A stretch of 56,589 nt of DNA, from sequence record PZ445422.1; one strand, 5' to 3'. The notes beneath the pieces are model-generated. The model was not told the origin of the DNA. It saw only the letters and a program-made list of their open reading frames with translations, and searched no databases. Position 1 is the first letter of the stretch. Each line of letters starts with the position of its first letter. This document shows positions 1-56,589 of the stretch, in pieces. The DNA comes from a phage. Both the position numbers and the translations under genes were made by a program.

Positions 1-273
1 GTCTTGCCACTCCCCACGAAGTGCAGCAGCAATAAGATCATCGAAGGTGTCGAAGGACATTTCGCCCGTTACTGTACCTTCAACACTGCGAGCACCGAGG
101 CGGAAGTCCGCAGTTTCCGCATCATCGCGCAGTTCTTCAGATTCCAGCGTTGCAATATTAATGTCCAGACCGGAACTGGTTACACGGAACGGAGTAAACT
201 TCGCGCTCGCTGGCGTAGTGTTGCTTACATCTTCTTTGACGTAGTAACACGAATAACGTGAACCTGTAGCCAT
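1..273 (-). CDS. major tail (tube) protein, N-terminal part; ORF runs off the window start
   Basis: ATG at 273 preceded by GAGAGG RBS; open to position 1 (MATGSRYSCYYVKEDV...); follows head-tail genes; in frame with the ORF entering from the window end (55939..56589). Confidence 0.45.
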   Translation of the reverse strand, partial: MATGSRYSCYYVKEDVSNTTPASAKFTPFRVTSSGLDINIATLESEELRDDAETADFRLGARSVEGTVTGEMSFDTFDDLIAAALRGEWQD

Positions 274-32967: not shown

Positions 32968-33094
32968 TAAGTTCTAAGCTTGATCAAAAATATTTTTAAA
33001 AATATTCAGATAAGGGGTTGCGTGTCACAAAATCCTTTGGTACATTTAACCCCGTTGGTAACAAACGAACCCATAACAATTCGGAGTGAAGAGA

Positions 33095-33898
33095 ATGAGC
33101 AACATTGAAGATAAAAAAGCCGCTGCCGCTGCTGCCGCTGCTGCCGCTGCAAAATCTGCTAAACCTGCAAAGAAAGAAGCTACTGTGAATGATGCAGAAG
33201 CTAAGAAAGCCGCTGCCGCTGAAGCTGCACGCGTAGCAAAAGAGAAAAAAGAAGCAGAGAAAAAAGCTGCCGCTGAAAAGAAACAAGCTGAAATCCGCAC
33301 TGAAGCGGAAAACAAATTTAATGCGATTGCTAACGCTGCTGAAATCCTGAAAAACTCTTTGGCTACCGTCACCGACGAAAGCACTGTTGAACAAATCACG
33401 GAAGCAGAAACTCAGGGATCTGCAAACCTGAAGACCATTAAAGAAGCTCTGAAAGAGCTGAAAGCTGTCGTTAAGAAGTCTAAAGGTGAAGACCTGTCCG
33501 GTGCTGTAACTTCTGCCCAGGGTCTGGTGGATGGTCTGGAAGCTACTATTAAAGGCTTCAAAGACAAGATCCGTGCTGCAAAACAGGCAGAAAAAGAAGC
33601 GGAAAAAGCACGCGCTAAAGAGCTCCGCGAGAAAGAAAAAGAAGCTAATCGTATGCCGGAACAGAACGGTGTTCGTCGCCCACAACCGGAAACTTCCTGC
33701 GGTCGTGCCTGGGCCCTGATGGACCAGATTAGCGCTACGCTGGGTCAGCCTGCTCCGATCTCTTATGTTCTGAACCTGGCTGGTCGCCATGGTCTGAACG
33801 AAGATACCGTTAAAACCCAATATGCACGCTGGAAGAAATTTAATGGTGTAACTGGTCGCGTACCTGTGCCAGTACCGGAAGCTTTGAACGGCTTGTAA
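33095..33898 (+). CDS. Ala/Lys-rich histone H1-like protein with distinct C-terminal domain
   Basis: ATG at 33095 with GGAGTGAAGAGA RBS; N-terminal two-thirds is KAAAAAAAAAAAK / AEKKAAAEKK low complexity; C-terminal 80 aa globular. Confidence 0.5.
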   Translation: MSNIEDKKAAAAAAAAAAAKSAKPAKKEATVNDAEAKKAAAAEAARVAKEKKEAEKKAAAEKKQAEIRTEAENKFNAIANAAEILKNSLATVTDESTVEQITEAETQGSANLKTIKEALKELKAVVKKSKGEDLSGAVTSAQGLVDGLEATIKGFKDKIRAAKQAEKEAEKARAKELREKEKEANRMPEQNGVRRPQPETSCGRAWALMDQISATLGQPAPISYVLNLAGRHGLNEDTVKTQYARWKKFNGVTGRVPVPVPEALNGL

Positions 33899-33923
33899 TA
33901 TCAAAACATATCACGTTATAATG

Positions 33924-52007: not shown

Positions 52008-55000
52008 TTACCCCATTGCAGTTCTACGAATTGTTCCTCGGGATGCAAAGTCATTAAGAACTTTATTATATCCCTGCTCAGCGCCATCACGGGCCGCTTT
52101 TTGCATGGCTTGTGTGAGTGCTGCATCGCCATTTCCTTGCACCGTGATATACTGAACAATGCTAACACCACCGGACATATTCACGCCACCTTGTTGTGAA
52201 GCTTGGCTATCCAGGAAGCGATTTAACTTGTCATTAGACGGAGCATTAAGTACACGTTCACCCTTATCCAGCAACCATGTACCTTCACGCGGAACGTTAT
52301 CAATACCGTCGTGAGCCATACCAGCAATCGCTAAGCCACCCACAGTAGCAGCCGAGGCGTAACCCATAGTTTTCACTATAGCCGCCATTGTTGCACCCAT
52401 CGTGGCACCGCCTTGCTGTGTACCCCATGCAAGCGCCGCAGATGCTGCCGTTTCCGTGTTGGCAAGGATTGATGGGATTTGCATTGCTTTCTGTGCTGCA
52501 AACATAGCTTTATAAAAGAAGTTCTGCTGGCTTACAGCCTGTGACAGCCCATCCATTATAATGCCTAAGGATTCCTGAGAAAAGGATATCATTCGGTTCA
52601 TAAGAACTTTATCCAGGTTTTCCCTTTCCATGCTTGCTTTTTTCAGCACTTGGGTTTTAGCATCTTCGTAAAGCTGATAGTAAGCTAAATCATCGGCTCG
52701 CTGTTTTGCATTAAGCTCTGCAATCTTTGTATTTTGCTCGTACGCGATTTTTTCATAGTCTGTCATACCTTCATCTAACAGACCCTGAGCAAATTTACGA
52801 TTCTTCTTACGCTCGTCCAGTTTCTTTTGAGCTTCTTCTGCATCGTAAATTGCAGCAGCAAGACTAACAACTTCTGCTTTTTCCGCGGCAGTTGCAGACG
52901 TATTGAGCTTGTTTAAAGCCACAGCTTGAGCTTTCGCTTTGGCGTTTTCCTTAACCCCTGTGGTTACTTCGTTAAGCTTGTTTCGTAGATCGTCAATAAC
53001 CTTAGCGTTTTGTTGATCCGCCTTAATAGCGTCTTTTGTAGCTTTAGTCCGGTTTCTCTCTGCTTCTTCAAGATCGTAGTTTTTGCCAAGAGCTTGGGCT
53101 AAATCTTGAGCATATTTAACAAGCTCTTTAGCGGACTCGCTTGTTGCCTCTGAGCTAACGTCCTGACCCATAGCTACTTTGCGAATAAGGCTTCCGTATG
53201 TATCCGCATCCTTGCCCAGCGTCTGATACAGTCCACTAAGGATTGCAGCTTGGCGAGCATTACCAGCACCCTTAACCGTGTTAACATCAATCTCACGGTT
53301 AACGTCCCCTAGTTGACCTTTAAAGCGGTCCAATACTTTTTCGTCAATCAACGGACCGGATTTAATGTTAAGGACAGCCTTCATATCCGCAGCAAGCTGA
53401 CGCGCTAGAGGGATTATTTTCTCTATAGCGGGACTTGTCATTTCAAGCACATTGTTGTAACGACGTTGAGCTTCTTCAGCACGTTCCGCAGCAAGCTTGA
53501 CGTTATCCGTAGCAATTTGTAAGTTCTTCTCGGCACTAGCTGTATCACGACCGGACGCAGCACGACGTTTTAATTGTGCTTCATAGAACTTCTGCGTTTC
53601 CGTTGCAGATTTAAGAGCAGTTTGCTCCCGCTTCATTTGCTCTTCAAGTTCGGGGAGGATTGCGCGAGCTTTAACTGCGTTAGCTGCCAACTGAGCTTCT
53701 GTCATCTGCATCAGTTTCTCGCGTACAGAATCAACACTATCCGCAAACTGATTGTTTTCCGCACGACCAGCTTCCAGCGATGCTTTATAAGAGTAAATTG
53801 CACCCGCTGCCAGCATTGCTACACCAACAGGACCGCCAATTAACCCCATAGCACCGCGCAGCACGCTCATTGCTGTAGCTGCCCGGCTTGCGGCTGGTAC
53901 AGTTGCATTAAGCGCGGCATTGAGCGCCTGCCGCGCTTGCACGTCCGCCATAATTGCCGCAGAGTGGGCACGGGTGGCATTGATAAGCGCAAGACGAGCG
54001 CCCGCTTCCGCTGCCGTACCCTTAGCAACCGCTAACGCACCGCGTGCAACCTGCAAAGATGCAAGGGAAGCAGCACGGTCCGCAGCCGCTTTTTGTGCAG
54101 TAACGCCAATGGAGCTTTGCATCACCGCCGTAGTTGCCGCAGTTTGTGCAGCTTCCATCTGAGATGCTTTTGCAGCAGCTATAGACGCTTTAGTCTTAGC
54201 AAGCATTGCCGTAATGATACGGGCGGTGATCACTGTGGCTAAAGCTGAACCAACCGTTACAACCGTTCCTAAGTTTTCGGATAATGCAACAAACGTCTGT
54301 CCCAATGCAGCGACCGCACCTTGAGTCTTTTGGGATTCGCCCATAAACTTAGTCAGGTTGTTTGTTGCAACTGTCCATTGCTGGTTGAACGTTGGCATAG
54401 TGCGGCTAAATTCTTTATCAATTGTATCCGCAGCACCAGACAACGATTTGATAACCACATCGGCTGTTAACTTGCCGCTGTAGGCCAGTTCACGCAATTG
54501 TCCAATGGTAACACCTAAAGAATCGGACAGGATTTGAGTTAAGCGCGGAGCTTGTTCTGCAACAGAGCGGAATTCATCCCCACGCAGAACACCGGATGTC
54601 ATTGCTTGCGAAAACTGAATAAGGGCAGCACTTGCTTCATGGGATGTTGCACCGGAAACAATCATCGCTTTGTTAATTGTTTCGGTAATGCGTCCAAGCT
54701 CCATCCCTGTCATACCAGTATTCTTCATCGCACGCTGGAGACGGGAGTACAGAGTTGCAGTCGCTTCTAAGCTTGTACGAGAACGCTGGGCAATATCAAA
54801 CACGCGTTGCTGCGCATCTGCAACGGTTTCATTACCCGTACGAGCCAGTTCAAGTTTGTTGGTGAGGATAGTCCAGGAGTCCGATAGCGAAATAACACGG
54901 CTAATAGTGTCAACGCTAATCATTCCTACAATTGCAGCATCCAAACGACTTGTGACAGTTGCAAGTTCGTTAGATGTGTTAGACAATGTTTTATAGCTGG

Positions 55001-55124
55001 AGGTAACACGTTGAGCAGACCGCTCCGCTGTGTCACCTGTACGCGCTAAGTTCCGCAACATAGAGTCCGCGGTACTAATCCCTCTCGCGTCAACTCTGAT
55101 TACTAGCGAAGCGGTTTCGGCCAT
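52008..55124 (-). CDS. tail tape measure protein
   Basis: 1038 aa, Ala/Gln-rich helical protein; follows chaperone genes; start overlaps the stop of the frameshift extension. Confidence 0.85.
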   Translation of the reverse strand: MAETASLVIRVDARGISTADSMLRNLARTGDTAERSAQRVTSSYKTLSNTSNELATVTSRLDAAIVGMISVDTISRVISLSDSWTILTNKLELARTGNETVADAQQRVFDIAQRSRTSLEATATLYSRLQRAMKNTGMTGMELGRITETINKAMIVSGATSHEASAALIQFSQAMTSGVLRGDEFRSVAEQAPRLTQILSDSLGVTIGQLRELAYSGKLTADVVIKSLSGAADTIDKEFSRTMPTFNQQWTVATNNLTKFMGESQKTQGAVAALGQTFVALSENLGTVVTVGSALATVITARIITAMLAKTKASIAAAKASQMEAAQTAATTAVMQSSIGVTAQKAAADRAASLASLQVARGALAVAKGTAAEAGARLALINATRAHSAAIMADVQARQALNAALNATVPAASRAATAMSVLRGAMGLIGGPVGVAMLAAGAIYSYKASLEAGRAENNQFADSVDSVREKLMQMTEAQLAANAVKARAILPELEEQMKREQTALKSATETQKFYEAQLKRRAASGRDTASAEKNLQIATDNVKLAAERAEEAQRRYNNVLEMTSPAIEKIIPLARQLAADMKAVLNIKSGPLIDEKVLDRFKGQLGDVNREIDVNTVKGAGNARQAAILSGLYQTLGKDADTYGSLIRKVAMGQDVSSEATSESAKELVKYAQDLAQALGKNYDLEEAERNRTKATKDAIKADQQNAKVIDDLRNKLNEVTTGVKENAKAKAQAVALNKLNTSATAAEKAEVVSLAAAIYDAEEAQKKLDERKKNRKFAQGLLDEGMTDYEKIAYEQNTKIAELNAKQRADDLAYYQLYEDAKTQVLKKASMERENLDKVLMNRMISFSQESLGIIMDGLSQAVSQQNFFYKAMFAAQKAMQIPSILANTETAASAALAWGTQQGGATMGATMAAIVKTMGYASAATVGGLAIAGMAHDGIDNVPREGTWLLDKGERVLNAPSNDKLNRFLDSQASQQGGVNMSGGVSIVQYITVQGNGDAALTQAMQKAARDGAEQGYNKVLNDFASRGTIRRTAMG

Positions 55125-55929
55125 TATCTTCTCCTTTTTCTTCTACCTTTATTTTGATTTTGCATTTGACTTTCCATGAGTTTAGCATTTTGTTCAGCTT
55201 CTGACACGCGCTTTTCAAGCCATAGCTGCCGCAGTATTTCGCATTCGTACGGTTGAAGATGTAAGCCCATTGTCACTTGATAGCTGTGCAATTCTGTATA
55301 ACTAAAATCTCCTCCAGTGTAGATATCATCAAATAAAGTAGATAGATATTCGAAGCAAAGCGGTATTTCCTTTTCCCGATATTCTTTAAGCTTAGGTGGC
55401 GTCTTACCAGACTGTTCCTCAACCTTTTGCAGTTGCGATAATAAAGAAGATCCCCCGCCGGGGACTTTACTATTTAGTTCCCATTGGAGGATCTTCTTAT
55501 CAATTAACTGTCTGCGCGCTTTTAGAAAAAATTACTATCTTTAGCGGCAAATACGTTAAGGTCTTCTCGAACAGTTGGATTCTCCGTTAAGAACTCAAAC
55601 ACGTTGTCAACAGTTGGTGGCTCGTCAAACGTCCAACCTGCTACAAGATTACACAGTGAACGGGTAAGGATATCTTCCTTCATAGCATCCGTTACTTCCC
55701 CGTCTTTACCCTGCATAAGTGCCAACAGTTGACGTTGTGCTTTCAATTCTGCGTCACGATACTCTGTGCAGTAGCGACTACGAATGTAGAGTTTTTCGCC
55801 AGTGTCGCCTACACCAGGAATAACCACATTCATAGGCTTAGTGTTTGCCGGATCGTTAGCCCGGCTCACAGTTTTAAAATCACGGAAGCTTTTAGCTACT
55901 GCAACTTTGCCTTTTTTGGTGTCGGTCAT
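55124..55929 (-). CDS. tail assembly chaperone, -1 frameshift-extended isoform (G-T-like)
   Basis: my translation of the -1 frame after the slippery site is open for about 133 codons and ends at TAA overlapping the tape measure ATG (TAATG). Confidence 0.55.
55522..55929 (-). CDS. tail assembly chaperone (G-like, short isoform)
   Basis: 135 aa ORF between major tail protein and tape measure gene; ends ...KDSNFF at slippery site. Confidence 0.6.
   Translation of the reverse strand: MTDTKKGKVAVAKSFRDFKTVSRANDPANTKPMNVVIPGVGDTGEKLYIRSRYCTEYRDAELKAQRQLLALMQGKDGEVTDAMKEDILTRSLCNLVAGWTFDEPPTVDNVFEFLTENPTVREDLNVFAAKDSNFF
55525..55531 (-). promoter_or_regulatory. -1 programmed ribosomal frameshift slippery heptamer U UUU UUC
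   Basis: minus-strand TTTTTTC in X XXY YYZ phase, 1 codon before the chaperone stop. Confidence 0.55.
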
Positions 55930-55938
55930 TTCTTATCC

Positions 55939-56589
55939 TTATTCTGTCGCTAAAACGCGGGTAATTTTGATGGAACTTGCGGTTGTTGGGTCCAGCAATC
56001 CGCGGTAGCCCATATTAAGCATGATATCACCTTCACCGTCAATAGGACGCGGAGCTTCAGTGAATTTCACGCGAGGGATTTCCACTGTGTATTTCTGTTC
56101 CGGATTGGTCGGGTCAATCAGATCAAACTTGATTGAAGTTTCCACTTCATTCAGATACTTCATACGCAGCTTGTTATCCAGGAAGTACACGTTAGCTGTA
56201 CCAGTTACCGCACGACGACCAGCGGACGGTTCAATGGAGAACTTAGAACCAACAACAAAGCGCGGCGCAATATCGTTTTCAACGGTAAGACCGATTTCCG
56301 TAATAACGCTGATTTCTTCGTTGTTTTCCAGCAAGCGACCGGAGAAACCATCCATCGGTGAAGTAGTCGTACGGTCTTTGATAGTTGCACCAGATGGGAG
56401 CGATTCCGCAATTTCCATCGAGCGACCAACAATACCGAATTCCACTGTGGTCATGTTTTCCGCAGACAATGAGAAAGTCATGCTATTAACTTCGCAACCG
56501 CGATAAATTGTATATTTACCTGACGGCAGATCTGCGTTATAGTCTACGAAAGTAAATGACTGACGGACAATACCGCCTTTAAGGACGTT
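55939..56589 (-). CDS. major tail (tube) protein, C-terminal part; ORF enters from beyond the window end
   Basis: reading frame open from 56589 (no stop upstream of the annotated Met at 56481); in phase with the ORF fragment 1..273. Confidence 0.5.
   Translation of the reverse strand, partial: NVLKGGIVRQSFTFVDYNADLPSGKYTIYRGCEVNSMTFSLSAENMTTVEFGIVGRSMEIAESLPSGATIKDRTTTSPMDGFSGRLLENNEEISVITEIGLTVENDIAPRFVVGSKFSIEPSAGRRAVTGTANVYFLDNKLRMKYLNEVETSIKFDLIDPTNPEQKYTVEIPRVKFTEAPRPIDGEGDIMLNMGYRGLLDPTTASSIKITRVLATE

What the first reader, a model, noticed from the sequence alone, without database searches (positions are those of the whole stretch)
55124..55929. Canonical -1 programmed frameshift in the tail assembly chaperone
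The chaperone ORF ends ...AAT TTT TTC TAA on the minus strand, so the heptamer T TTT TTC (55525..55531) sits in X XXY YYZ phase. The -1 frame after it is open for about 133 codons and stops at TAA overlapping the tape measure ATG. This matches the conserved G/G-T chaperone arrangement of long-tailed phages.
Basis: partly seen in the sequence, partly recalled or inferred. Interest (0 to 1): 0.5.

Follow-up and report, generated by a model that had tools for sequence, protein, structure and literature searches.

The report
Tail chaperone G/GT -1 frameshift
This is the ordinary, widely conserved -1 ribosomal frameshift that lets a long-tailed phage make a short and a long tail-assembly chaperone from one gene; the same site is already annotated in the sister phage Seurat, though it is split into two separate ORFs in this phage's own record.

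Summary
The window is phage GottfriedDienst (Bas21, Seuratvirus), reverse-complemented and rotated. The 135-codon chaperone ORF (55522..55929, minus) ends AAT TTT TTC TAA, so T TTT TTC (55525..55531) is in X XXY YYZ phase. The -1 frame is open for 133 codons from the heptamer to a TAA that overlaps the tape-measure ATG (TAATG).

The only stretch where a 0-to-minus-1 shift can give a fusion is 10 nt, TTTTTTCTAA. The first 78 codons of the -1 frame have no ATG, GTG or TTG, yet they evolve like coding sequence: 20 of 24 differences from phage Skure are at third positions.

The fused 268-aa protein matches PHROG 569 end to end, and its T half matches Pfam Phage_TAC_18. All 12 phages examined, down to about 25% identity, carry an in-phase TTTTTTC or TTTTTTA. 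All 67 metagenomic viral loci with both halves have T in the -1 frame, with AAAAAAG or AAATTTT replacing the heptamer in some. GenBank and RefSeq Seurat and SA126VB already annotate the joined CDS at this site.

Verdict: real, canonical and already known, so low interest. One side observation is new: a hairpin conserved in structure, not sequence, lies 22-36 nt downstream, too far to be a classical stimulator.

The parts
55939..56589 (-). 3' part of the major tail (tube) gene, bas21_0013 'tail subunit'. The gene is cut by the window end and continues at 1..273.
   Evidence: Coordinates map as window + record = 65581.
55936..55940 (-). Shine-Dalgarno-like AAGGA, 6 nt before the G start codon.
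   Evidence: Read directly.
55522..55929 (-). G: the short tail-assembly (tape-measure) chaperone, 135 aa, 15.2 kDa. This is the product of normal frame-0 translation (bas21_0014).
   Evidence: PHROG 569 E 4e-25 and PHROG 313 'tail assembly chaperone' E 3.6e-11.
55525..55531 (-). Slippery heptamer T TTT TTC in X XXY YYZ phase. P-site UUU and A-site UUC tRNA-Phe can both re-pair on UUU UUU one base back.
   Evidence: An in-phase TTTTTTC or TTTTTTA is present in all 12 phages examined and in 46 of 67 metagenomic viral loci. U_UU.U_UU.C is classed as shift-prone in E. coli (PMC4066793).
55532..55537 (-). TAG TAA in the -1 frame, directly 5' of the heptamer. These stops close the -1 frame upstream, so the permissive shift stretch is only 10 nt.
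55522..55524 (-). Frame-0 stop codon TAA of G, flush against the heptamer.
55124..55525 (-). T: the -1 frame extension of 133 codons plus TAA. Its first 78 codons have no ATG, GTG or TTG, so it can be reached only by frameshifting from G. The fusion GT is 268 aa, 30.9 kDa.
   Evidence: Pfam Phage_TAC_18 E 1e-9, 38.8 bits against a cut-off of 27. PHROG 569 positions 130-256. Third-codon-position bias in the -1 frame.
55124..55270 (-). The 48-aa ORF annotated separately in this phage's own record (bas21_0015, 'putative tape measure chaperone'). It is best read as the C-terminal end of T, not an independent gene.
   Evidence: No Shine-Dalgarno sequence lies upstream of its ATG (read). The 85 codons upstream of that ATG are conserved as protein.
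55439..55502 (-). Long hairpin inside T, starting 23 nt after the heptamer. The main stem pairs 55502..55486 with 55456..55439 (17 bp, one bulge). An alternative short G+C hairpin at 55465..55450 has a U-rich tail.
   Evidence: Function not established.
55131..55135 (-). AGGAG Shine-Dalgarno sequence of the tape-measure gene, embedded in the basic C-terminal codons of T.
   Evidence: Read. The matching ribosome-binding-site feature is annotated in Seurat.
52008..55124 (-). Tape measure protein gene (1038 aa). Its ATG overlaps the T stop codon as TAATG.

Best explanation
**What it is.** A programmed -1 ribosomal frameshift produces two tail-assembly chaperones from one start codon.

**How it works.** Most ribosomes translate G (135 aa) and terminate at the TAA flush with the heptamer. 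A minority slip back one base while tRNA-Phe occupies UUU in the P site and UUC in the A site of U UUU UUC. Both tRNAs re-pair on UUU. Those ribosomes then read CUA AAA GCG ... for 133 more codons, giving the 268-aa fusion GT, which ends at the TAA overlapping the tape-measure ATG.

**Presumed function, by analogy with lambda gpG/gpGT.** The G domain coats the tape-measure protein. The rare T domain recruits the tail tube protein, so the G:GT ratio set by the shift frequency matters for tail assembly.

**Shown here:**
- the sequence anatomy;
- that T can only be reached from G;
- that T is a conserved protein in the -1 frame;
- that the slip site is conserved family-wide.

**Inferred:** that the fusion is actually made, its ratio to G, and the binding partners.
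For: **Anatomy of the site**
- Heptamer phase, frames and stop codons were checked directly.
- The permissive stretch is 10 nt and is filled by the heptamer.
- The -1 frame has no start codon for 78 codons.

**T is translated in the -1 frame**
- That start-less stretch shows third-position bias: 9 of 11 variable columns among six close genomes, and 20 of 24 differences against Skure.
- T half: Pfam Phage_TAC_18, above the curated cut-off.

**The fusion is a real protein family**
- The fused protein matches PHROG 569 colinearly: residues 1-268 to profile positions 11-256, E 1.8e-76.
- tblastn of the fused protein returns two adjacent pieces in 39 of the 40 records listed, of 91 that match.
- The fused proteins of 12 phages align across the junction, sharing ...AAxDSxFF|L+xR+xLI....

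**The slip site is conserved**
- All 12 phages have an in-phase TTTTTTC or TTTTTTA in the overlap, whether G stops immediately or 16 codons later.
- All 67 metagenomic viral (IMG/VR) loci with both halves have T in the -1 frame. In some, the slip site is another in-phase X XXY YYZ heptamer at the same place: A AAA AAG or A AAT TTT. A AAT TTT argues for tandem tRNA slippage and against polymerase slippage on a homopolymer.
- U_UU.U_UU.C is among the efficient motifs in E. coli and is used by IS elements (PMC4066793).

**Prior annotation and the model system**
- The same site is annotated as a joined CDS with 'ribosomal slippage' in Seurat, and as a joined CDS in SA126VB.
- Lambda has the same layout V-G-T-H, with G GGA AAG in phase. 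Its mechanism is reviewed in PMC5009743.
Against: - There is no experimental detection of GT in this phage or any Seuratvirus or Nonagvirus. No paper found reports one: 'frameshift' has no occurrence in five of the six papers listed that describe phages of this group, and the sixth was not opened.
- There is no stable RNA structure in the 48 nt after the heptamer, so nothing lies at the classical 5-9 nt spacing (MFE -2.4 kcal/mol, z +1.1), and no upstream Shine-Dalgarno-like stimulator is visible. In E. coli, heptamers without stimulators shifted at only 2-10 times a background of about 0.05% (PMC4066793). The source of a percent-level shift is therefore unexplained.
- There is no detectable sequence similarity to lambda G/T (hhalign probability 1.5%). 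The functional roles are transferred by analogy only.
- The chaperone fold of G could not be tested (single-sequence model, pLDDT 49).
Confidence: 0.9

Rival explanations
1. The downstream frame is an independent small gene. This is how the phage's own record treats it (bas21_0015, 48 aa, from ATG 55270), and Skure starts it at a TTG. No frameshift would be needed.
For: GottfriedDienst, CSP1C, Skure, 9g, Vid5, EC151 and others annotate a separate downstream ORF.
Against: - The annotated starts differ between records, and the ATG at 55270 has no Shine-Dalgarno sequence.
- The 78 codons with no possible start codon are conserved as protein from Seuratvirus to Pseudomonas phages.
- Those codons show third-position bias in the -1 frame.
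- Pfam Phage_TAC_18 and PHROG 569 matches begin 35 and 6 residues into T, far upstream of any start codon.
Confidence: 0.03
2. The reading-frame change is made by RNA polymerase, not the ribosome. Slippage on the T6 run would insert one extra U into a fraction of the mRNAs, and these would then be translated normally into GT.
For: The site is a homopolymer run: T6 here, and T7 in 9g, K9PH25C2 and PaMx11. Transcriptional slippage is a known way to make such fusions (PMC5009743).
Against: - A run of six is short. As I recall, documented bacterial cases use about nine.
- Relatives replace the site with A AAT TTT, which is not a homopolymer, or keep only an in-phase U UUU.
- Conservation follows the X XXY YYZ phase, which matters for tRNA re-pairing and not for polymerase slippage.
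Confidence: 0.05
3. The open -1 frame is a relic or a chance feature, and no fusion of functional importance is made.
For: No experimental product is reported. No classical stimulator is present.
Against: The open frame, the slip site and the protein sequence are conserved over 12 phage genomes examined closely and 67 metagenomic viral loci, down to about 25% identity. The substitution pattern is that of coding sequence.
Confidence: 0.02

Closest known systems
Phage Seurat CPT_Seurat13/14 'tape measure chaperone' (KM236243 / NC_027378), and SA126VB_14/15
   Same: The heptamer and its flanks are identical, the GT protein is 99% identical, and the gene order is the same. The joined CDS spans the same 806 nt. 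Seurat notes 'ribosomal slippage (10236)', a position inside the same TTTTTTC.
   Different: Nothing of substance. Only the annotation differs: GottfriedDienst's record lists G plus a 48-aa ORF instead of the join.
Bacteriophage lambda gpG/gpGT (Levin et al. 1993; Xu et al. 2004, 2013, 2014, as cited in PMC5009743)
   Same: - Gene order tube (V) - G - T - tape measure (H).
- A -1 shift at an in-phase X XXY YYZ heptamer near the end of G.
- Sizes: the heptamer ends at codon 135 of G in both (lambda's full G runs 5 codons further, 140 aa), and GT is 279 aa in lambda against 268 aa here.
- T ends at the start of the tape-measure gene.
   Different: - The heptamer is G GGA AAG in lambda, U UUU UUC here.
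- Lambda G continues 5 codons past the heptamer. Here the stop is flush.
- T overlaps H by 8 nt in lambda, 1 nt here.
- There is no detectable sequence similarity (hhalign probability 1.5%), and no lambda-type Pfam family appeared in the scan.
-1 frameshift sites of IS elements and dnaX in E. coli (PMC4066793)
   Same: Same class of X XXY YYZ tandem-slippage motif. U_UU.U_UU.C is one of the 16 heptamers found in IS elements, and belongs to the efficient H_HH.U_UU.Y group.
   Different: Those sites typically rely on a hairpin or pseudoknot at short spacing, or on an upstream Shine-Dalgarno sequence. Neither is seen here. The nearest stable structure starts 23 nt downstream.

Membership tests
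Conserved G/GT tail-assembly-chaperone frameshift of long-tailed phages (Xu, Hendrix & Duda 2004) | The gene pair lies between the major tail (tube) gene and the tape-measure gene. | tested here: met
   Tube 55939..56589, G 55522..55929, T 55124..55525, tape measure 52008..55124, all on the minus strand.
Conserved G/GT tail-assembly-chaperone frameshift of long-tailed phages (Xu, Hendrix & Duda 2004) | The second ORF overlaps the end of the first in another frame and has no start site of its own. | tested here: met
   T is in the -1 frame, closed by TAG TAA just 5' of the heptamer. No ATG, GTG or TTG occurs for 78 codons.
Conserved G/GT tail-assembly-chaperone frameshift of long-tailed phages (Xu, Hendrix & Duda 2004) | A slippery sequence lies in the overlap, in the right phase. 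| tested here: met
   T TTT TTC at 55525..55531 fills the 10-nt overlap.
Conserved G/GT tail-assembly-chaperone frameshift of long-tailed phages (Xu, Hendrix & Duda 2004) | The arrangement is conserved among relatives despite sequence divergence. | tested here: met
   12 of 12 phages and 67 of 67 metagenomic viral loci have T in the -1 frame, and 60 of the 67 have an in-phase canonical heptamer.
Conserved G/GT tail-assembly-chaperone frameshift of long-tailed phages (Xu, Hendrix & Duda 2004) | A fusion protein is made at a low, fixed ratio to G and is required for tail assembly. Neither protein is present in the virion. | not testable with these tools
   Needs proteomics and genetics. No report was found for this phage group.
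Pfam Phage_TAC_18 (PF23812) | Score above the curated gathering cut-off. | tested here: met
   T part scores 38.8 bits against a cut-off of 27, E 1e-9, residues 35-104 to profile positions 1-74 of 79.
Pfam Phage_TAC_4 (PF08748) | Score above the curated gathering cut-off. | tested here: not met
   G part scores 14.2 bits against a cut-off of 21.1. G does match PHROG 313 'tail assembly chaperone' (E 3.6e-11) and PHROG 569.
Lambda gpG / gpT sequence families | Detectable sequence homology to lambda G or T. | tested here: not met
   hhalign of the 10-member GT alignment against lambda GT gives probability 1.5%. The relation to lambda is one of layout and presumed function, not demonstrated homology.
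Tail assembly chaperone fold | Predicted structure of G resembles solved chaperone structures. | tested here: inconclusive
   The single-sequence AlphaFold model had pLDDT 49 and is unusable. A profile search of PDB sequences found nothing relevant.
Classical bipartite -1 PRF signal (heptamer plus 3' structure at 5-9 nt, or 5' Shine-Dalgarno sequence) | A stable hairpin or pseudoknot starts 5-9 nt after the heptamer. | tested here: not met
   MFE of +1..+48 is -2.4 kcal/mol, z +1.1 against synonymous shuffles. The first strong stem starts at +23. Some distant relatives (ZQG1, L032, L027, L061) do have a hairpin whose first paired base is 3-8 nt after the heptamer.

The most novel reading that the evidence does not exclude
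The conserved hairpin 22-36 nt after the slip site may be a functional RNA element tied to this frameshift cassette in the enterobacterial branch (Seuratvirus, Nonagvirus, and the EC151-like and Vid5-like phages). The window's copy is at 55502..55439. Stem sequences differ between lineages, and two stem pairs show compensatory changes.

Two roles are possible:
- a stimulator or modulator acting at a non-classical distance, perhaps together with the stop codon flush against the heptamer;
- a structure that protects or regulates the roughly 400 nt of T that most ribosomes never translate, for example against Rho or RNases, so that the tape-measure gene is still expressed.

If so, the G:GT:tape-measure stoichiometry would be set by more than the heptamer.
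Probability: 0.25. Interest if true: 0.4.

Novelty: already known. Interest (0 to 1): 0.15.

Why it matters
For biology at large it adds little. It is one more instance of the best-known recoding event in tailed phages, and the identical site is already annotated in the type phage of the genus.

Its practical value is for annotation.
- The GenBank records of GottfriedDienst and many relatives (other BASEL Seuratviruses, CSP1C, Skure, 9g, Vid5, EC151, PaMx11 and others) list a truncated or arbitrary downstream ORF instead of the joined GT product.
- In the RefSeq copies of Seurat, 9g, SE1 and PSTCR4 and in the Klebsiella phage assemblies, and in PHROG 569 itself, the chaperone is labelled 'tail length tape measure protein'.

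The family-wide survey here gives a clean rule for correcting these records: T is always in the -1 frame, with TTTTTTC/A, AAAAAAG or AAATTTT at one fixed protein position.

The distant hairpin, and the lack of any short-range stimulator, is a small open question about how the shift frequency is set.

Tried and rejected
- **Structure of G.** Single-sequence AlphaFold gave pLDDT 49, so no fold search was run.
- **PDB profile search and NCBIfam.** Nothing relevant.
- **hhalign against lambda GT.** No similarity.
- **RNAalifold on 11 diverse sequences.** No consensus structure, because the 3' arms sit in different registers in each lineage. I used per-lineage folds and one lineage-pair count instead.
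- **Rfam.** No family at the hairpin, only sub-threshold hairpin-like hits on the opposite strand.
- **Terminator reading of the inner G+C hairpin.** Not adopted. The U-rich tail is absent in the 9g, K9PH25C2, EC151 and Vid5 lineages.
- **Other in-phase heptamers with long -1 frames (33112..33319, minus).** Rejected. The host 117-aa ORF is nested inside a 302-aa ORF, 32996..33904, minus, and that larger ORF's frame is the long open -1 frame.
- **Structure downstream of the heptamer across all 30 diverse loci.** The trend is only weak (mean z -1.5 against -0.4 to -0.9 in control windows; Wilcoxon p from 0.10 to 0.0008 depending on the control). The hairpin claim is therefore restricted to the enterobacterial branch.
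- **Literature searches.** No experimental report of this frameshift in Seuratvirus or Nonagvirus was found.
Full report
**Identity of the window.** A 1.1-kb stretch around the finding (55000..56100) is 100% identical to Escherichia phage GottfriedDienst (Bas21, MZ501071.1; Seuratvirus, Queuovirinae). That record is also 56,589 bp, the length of the window. The window is the reverse complement of the record, rotated so that window + record coordinate = 65581. The tail tube gene is therefore split across the window ends.

**Checking the observation.**
- The minus-strand ORF 55522..55929 (135 aa) ends GAT AGT AAT TTT TTC TAA.
- T TTT TTC lies at 55531..55525, in X XXY YYZ phase.
- The -1 frame reads TAG TAA TTT TTT CTA AAA GCG ... 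and stays open for 133 codons, to TAA 55126..55124. That stop shares a base with the tape-measure ATG at 55124..55122.

**The site is tightly constrained.**
- The -1 frame is closed by TAG TAA immediately 5' of the heptamer, and frame 0 is closed by TAA immediately 3' of it.
- The only stretch where a 0-to-minus-1 shift can produce a fusion is therefore the 10 nt TTTTTTCTAA.
- Among 63 in-phase XXXYYYZ heptamers in all ORFs of at least 80 aa in the window, this one has the longest -1 extension and is the only one at an ORF end.
- The runners-up, at 33112..33319, sit in a 117-aa ORF nested inside a 302-aa ORF and are artefacts.
- TTTTTTC occurs 12 times in the window, against 19 +/- 4 expected.

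**T is translated, and only through G.**
- The -1 frame has no ATG, GTG or TTG in its first 78 codons.
- That start-less stretch nevertheless evolves as coding sequence in the -1 frame. Among six close genomes, 9 of 11 variable columns are third positions. Against Skure, and against the metagenomic relative L007, 20 of 24 differences are third positions.
- Across the whole T region of the six close genomes, 16 of 18 variable columns are third positions, and only 2 of 134 residues vary.
- The phage's own record annotates a separate 48-aa ORF from ATG 55270 (bas21_0015). That ATG has no Shine-Dalgarno sequence. Records of relatives place the 'start' of the second ORF at different, arbitrary positions.

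**Protein-family evidence.**
- The fused 268-aa protein (30.9 kDa; G alone is 15.2 kDa) matches one profile, PHROG 569, end to end: residues 1-268 to profile positions 11-256, E 1.8e-76. G covers positions 11-126 and T covers 130-256.
- G also hits PHROG 313 'tail assembly chaperone' (E 3.6e-11).
- T passes the curated cut-off of Pfam Phage_TAC_18, with 38.8 bits against 27.
- G is below threshold for Phage_TAC_4.
- There is no detectable similarity to lambda GT (hhalign probability 1.5%), no solved relative by sequence, and no usable single-sequence model (pLDDT 49).

**Comparative evidence.**
- tblastn of the fused protein against 50,697 phage records finds 91 records. In 39 of the 40 records listed, the match is two adjacent pieces in different frames.
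- I examined the window's phage and 11 others in detail: Seurat, Skure, Hafnia yong3, 9g, Klebsiella K9PH25C2, Pantoea Vid5, Enterobacter EC151, Providencia PSTCR4, Salmonella PMBT28, and Pseudomonas PaMx11 and ZQG1. Identity to the window's GT runs from 99% down to about 25%.
- In all 12, the -1 frame is open for 124-141 codons and ends within 4 nt of the tape-measure start, or overlaps it by 22-34 nt in PaMx11 and ZQG1.
- In all 12, an in-phase TTTTTTC (TTTTTTA in EC151) lies in the overlap, at the same protein position (...AAxDSxFF). This holds whether G stops at once or 16 codons later.
- The 12 fused proteins align colinearly across the junction.
- In 68 metagenomic viral (IMG/VR) loci fetched with a profile of these proteins, 67 have both halves, and T is in the -1 frame in all 67.
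- Sixty of the 67 have a canonical in-phase heptamer: TTTTTTC in 40, AAAAAAG in 8, TTTTTTA in 4, and AAATTTT without either TTTTTT motif in 8. The remaining 7 still appear to keep an in-phase T TTT tetramer, judged by parsing two of the three overlap patterns by eye, not by a script.
- Replacement of one shift-prone motif by another at a fixed position, including the non-homopolymeric A AAT TTT, is what tandem tRNA slippage predicts. It argues against polymerase slippage.

**Prior knowledge.**
That position is inside the same heptamer. SA126VB carries the same two-piece CDS.
- The Seurat genome paper mentions only a 'tape measure chaperone' (PMC4342423).
- 'Frameshift' has no occurrence in five of the six papers listed that describe phages of this group; the sixth, a retron-defence paper with one occurrence, was not opened.
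- The general phenomenon is textbook. In lambda, a -1 shift at G GGA AAG gives G and GT at a ratio of about 30:1, G binds the tape measure, and T binds the tube protein (PMC5009743). I confirmed lambda's layout directly.
- U_UU.U_UU.C is in the efficient H_HH.U_UU.Y class in E. coli and is used by IS elements (PMC4066793).

**Mechanism and what remains open.**
- The slip itself is straightforward. As I recall, E. coli has a single tRNA-Phe species, anticodon GAA, which reads both UUU and UUC, so both tRNAs re-pair on UUU after moving back one base.
- What sets the frequency is not clear. There is no upstream Shine-Dalgarno-like element.
- There is no stable structure in +1..+48 (MFE -2.4 kcal/mol, z +1.1 against synonymous-codon shuffles).
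- In reporter assays, heptamers without stimulators shifted at only 2-10 times a background of about 0.05%.
- Two features might compensate. Both are inferences.
- The first is the frame-0 stop codon flush with the heptamer. It is shared by Seurat-like phages, yong3, 9g and K9PH25C2.
- The second is a long hairpin starting 23 nt after the heptamer.

**The distant hairpin (a side finding).**
- In the window, 55502..55486 pairs with 55456..55439 (17 bp, one bulge) around a smaller inner stem-loop. The 126-nt region has z -3.0 against dinucleotide shuffles and -2.9 against synonymous-codon shuffles.
- Hairpins of the same architecture, at the same place in the alignment but with different stem sequences, are predicted in yong3, in the 9g group, in the K9PH25C2 group, in the EC151 group and in Vid5.
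- All nine members of this enterobacterial branch have z between -1.8 and -5.0, while control windows in the same genes average about -0.5.
- Between the 9g and K9PH25C2 lineages, the shared 8-bp outer stem is 96% paired. Two of its pairs changed on both sides (C-G to U-A, A-U to G-C), partly through synonymous third-position changes. This amounts to about one evolutionary split, so the support is modest.
- By my own inspection of the sequences, not a counted test, EC151 and L023 also show a G-C to C-G swap in the stem.
- The signal is weak or absent in the Pseudomonas and environmental relatives. Several of those instead have a hairpin close to the heptamer, with its first paired base 3-8 nt downstream (ZQG1, L032, L027, L061).
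- The 22-36 nt spacing is too long for a classical stimulator. No Rfam family matches.
- The terminator-like look of the inner G+C hairpin in Seurat-like phages is not shared by the other lineages.
- Its function is open.

**Verdict.** The frameshift is an already known, already annotated feature of this phage genus and an instance of a classic mechanism, so interest is low. The useful by-products are:
- a correction to the annotation of this and many related records;
- a family-wide rule for locating the slip site;
- a conserved downstream hairpin of unknown role.

Noticed in passing
window 55439..55502 (minus); also L009, L010, L011, L012, L017-L024, L087-L091: A long two-tier hairpin lies inside the T frame, 22-36 nt after the slip heptamer. 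It is conserved in position and architecture but not in sequence across Seuratvirus, Nonagvirus, and the K9PH25C2-, EC151- and Vid5-like phages. Its z against synonymous shuffles is -1.8 to -5.0, and there are compensatory changes between lineages. It is too far downstream to be a classical frameshift stimulator, and no Rfam family matches.
   Followed up: partly
window 55124..55270 (minus): The phage's own GenBank record annotates the last 48 codons of T as a separate gene (bas21_0015) and has no joined GT CDS. Many relatives do the same with arbitrary starts. In the RefSeq copies of Seurat, 9g, SE1 and PSTCR4, in the Klebsiella phage assemblies and in PHROG 569, the chaperone is labelled 'tail length tape measure protein'.
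   Followed up: yes
window 1..273 and 55939..56589: The window is the complete 56,589-bp GottfriedDienst genome, reverse-complemented and rotated (window + record = 65581). The tail tube gene is therefore split across the two window ends.
   Followed up: partly
L069-L073, L077, L078 (metagenomic viral, IMG/VR, loci): Seven distant relatives have T in the -1 frame but no canonical X XXY YYZ heptamer in a 22-91 nt overlap. From parsing two of the three overlap patterns by eye, they appear to keep only an in-phase T TTT tetramer (GCC AAT TTT ATC, GCG GTT TTT ACC), which suggests single-tRNA slippage there.
   Followed up: no
L016 (ZQG1), L027, L032, L061; compare window 55477..55524: Some Pseudomonas and environmental relatives, in which G runs 11-16 codons past the heptamer, have a stable hairpin close to it, with its first paired base 3-8 nt downstream (-16 to -22 kcal/mol, z -2.1 to -3.0). 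The window and other phages with a flush stop codon have none. Across the 30 loci compared, the association between a flush stop and the lack of a near hairpin looked weak by eye; it was not tested formally.
   Followed up: partly
window 33046..33399 (minus): A 117-aa ORF carries four in-phase slippery heptamers (two of them TTTTTTC) with long open -1 frames. It is nested in the 302-aa ORF 32996..33904, so the 'open -1 frame' is simply that larger ORF's frame. This is not a frameshift candidate.
   Followed up: partly
window 55124..55139 (minus): The tape-measure Shine-Dalgarno sequence AGGAG (55135..55131) is embedded in the codons of the basic C-terminal tail of T (KGRRKRRR). The T stop and the tape-measure start overlap as TAATG. 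Since most ribosomes leave at the G stop about 400 nt upstream, the tape-measure gene must mostly be translated by fresh initiation.
   Followed up: no
L089 40..55 (phage HdSG1): The HdSG1 record annotates a putative transcription terminator between the tube gene and G. In the window, the tube-to-G spacer is only 9 nt and holds no such element.
   Followed up: no
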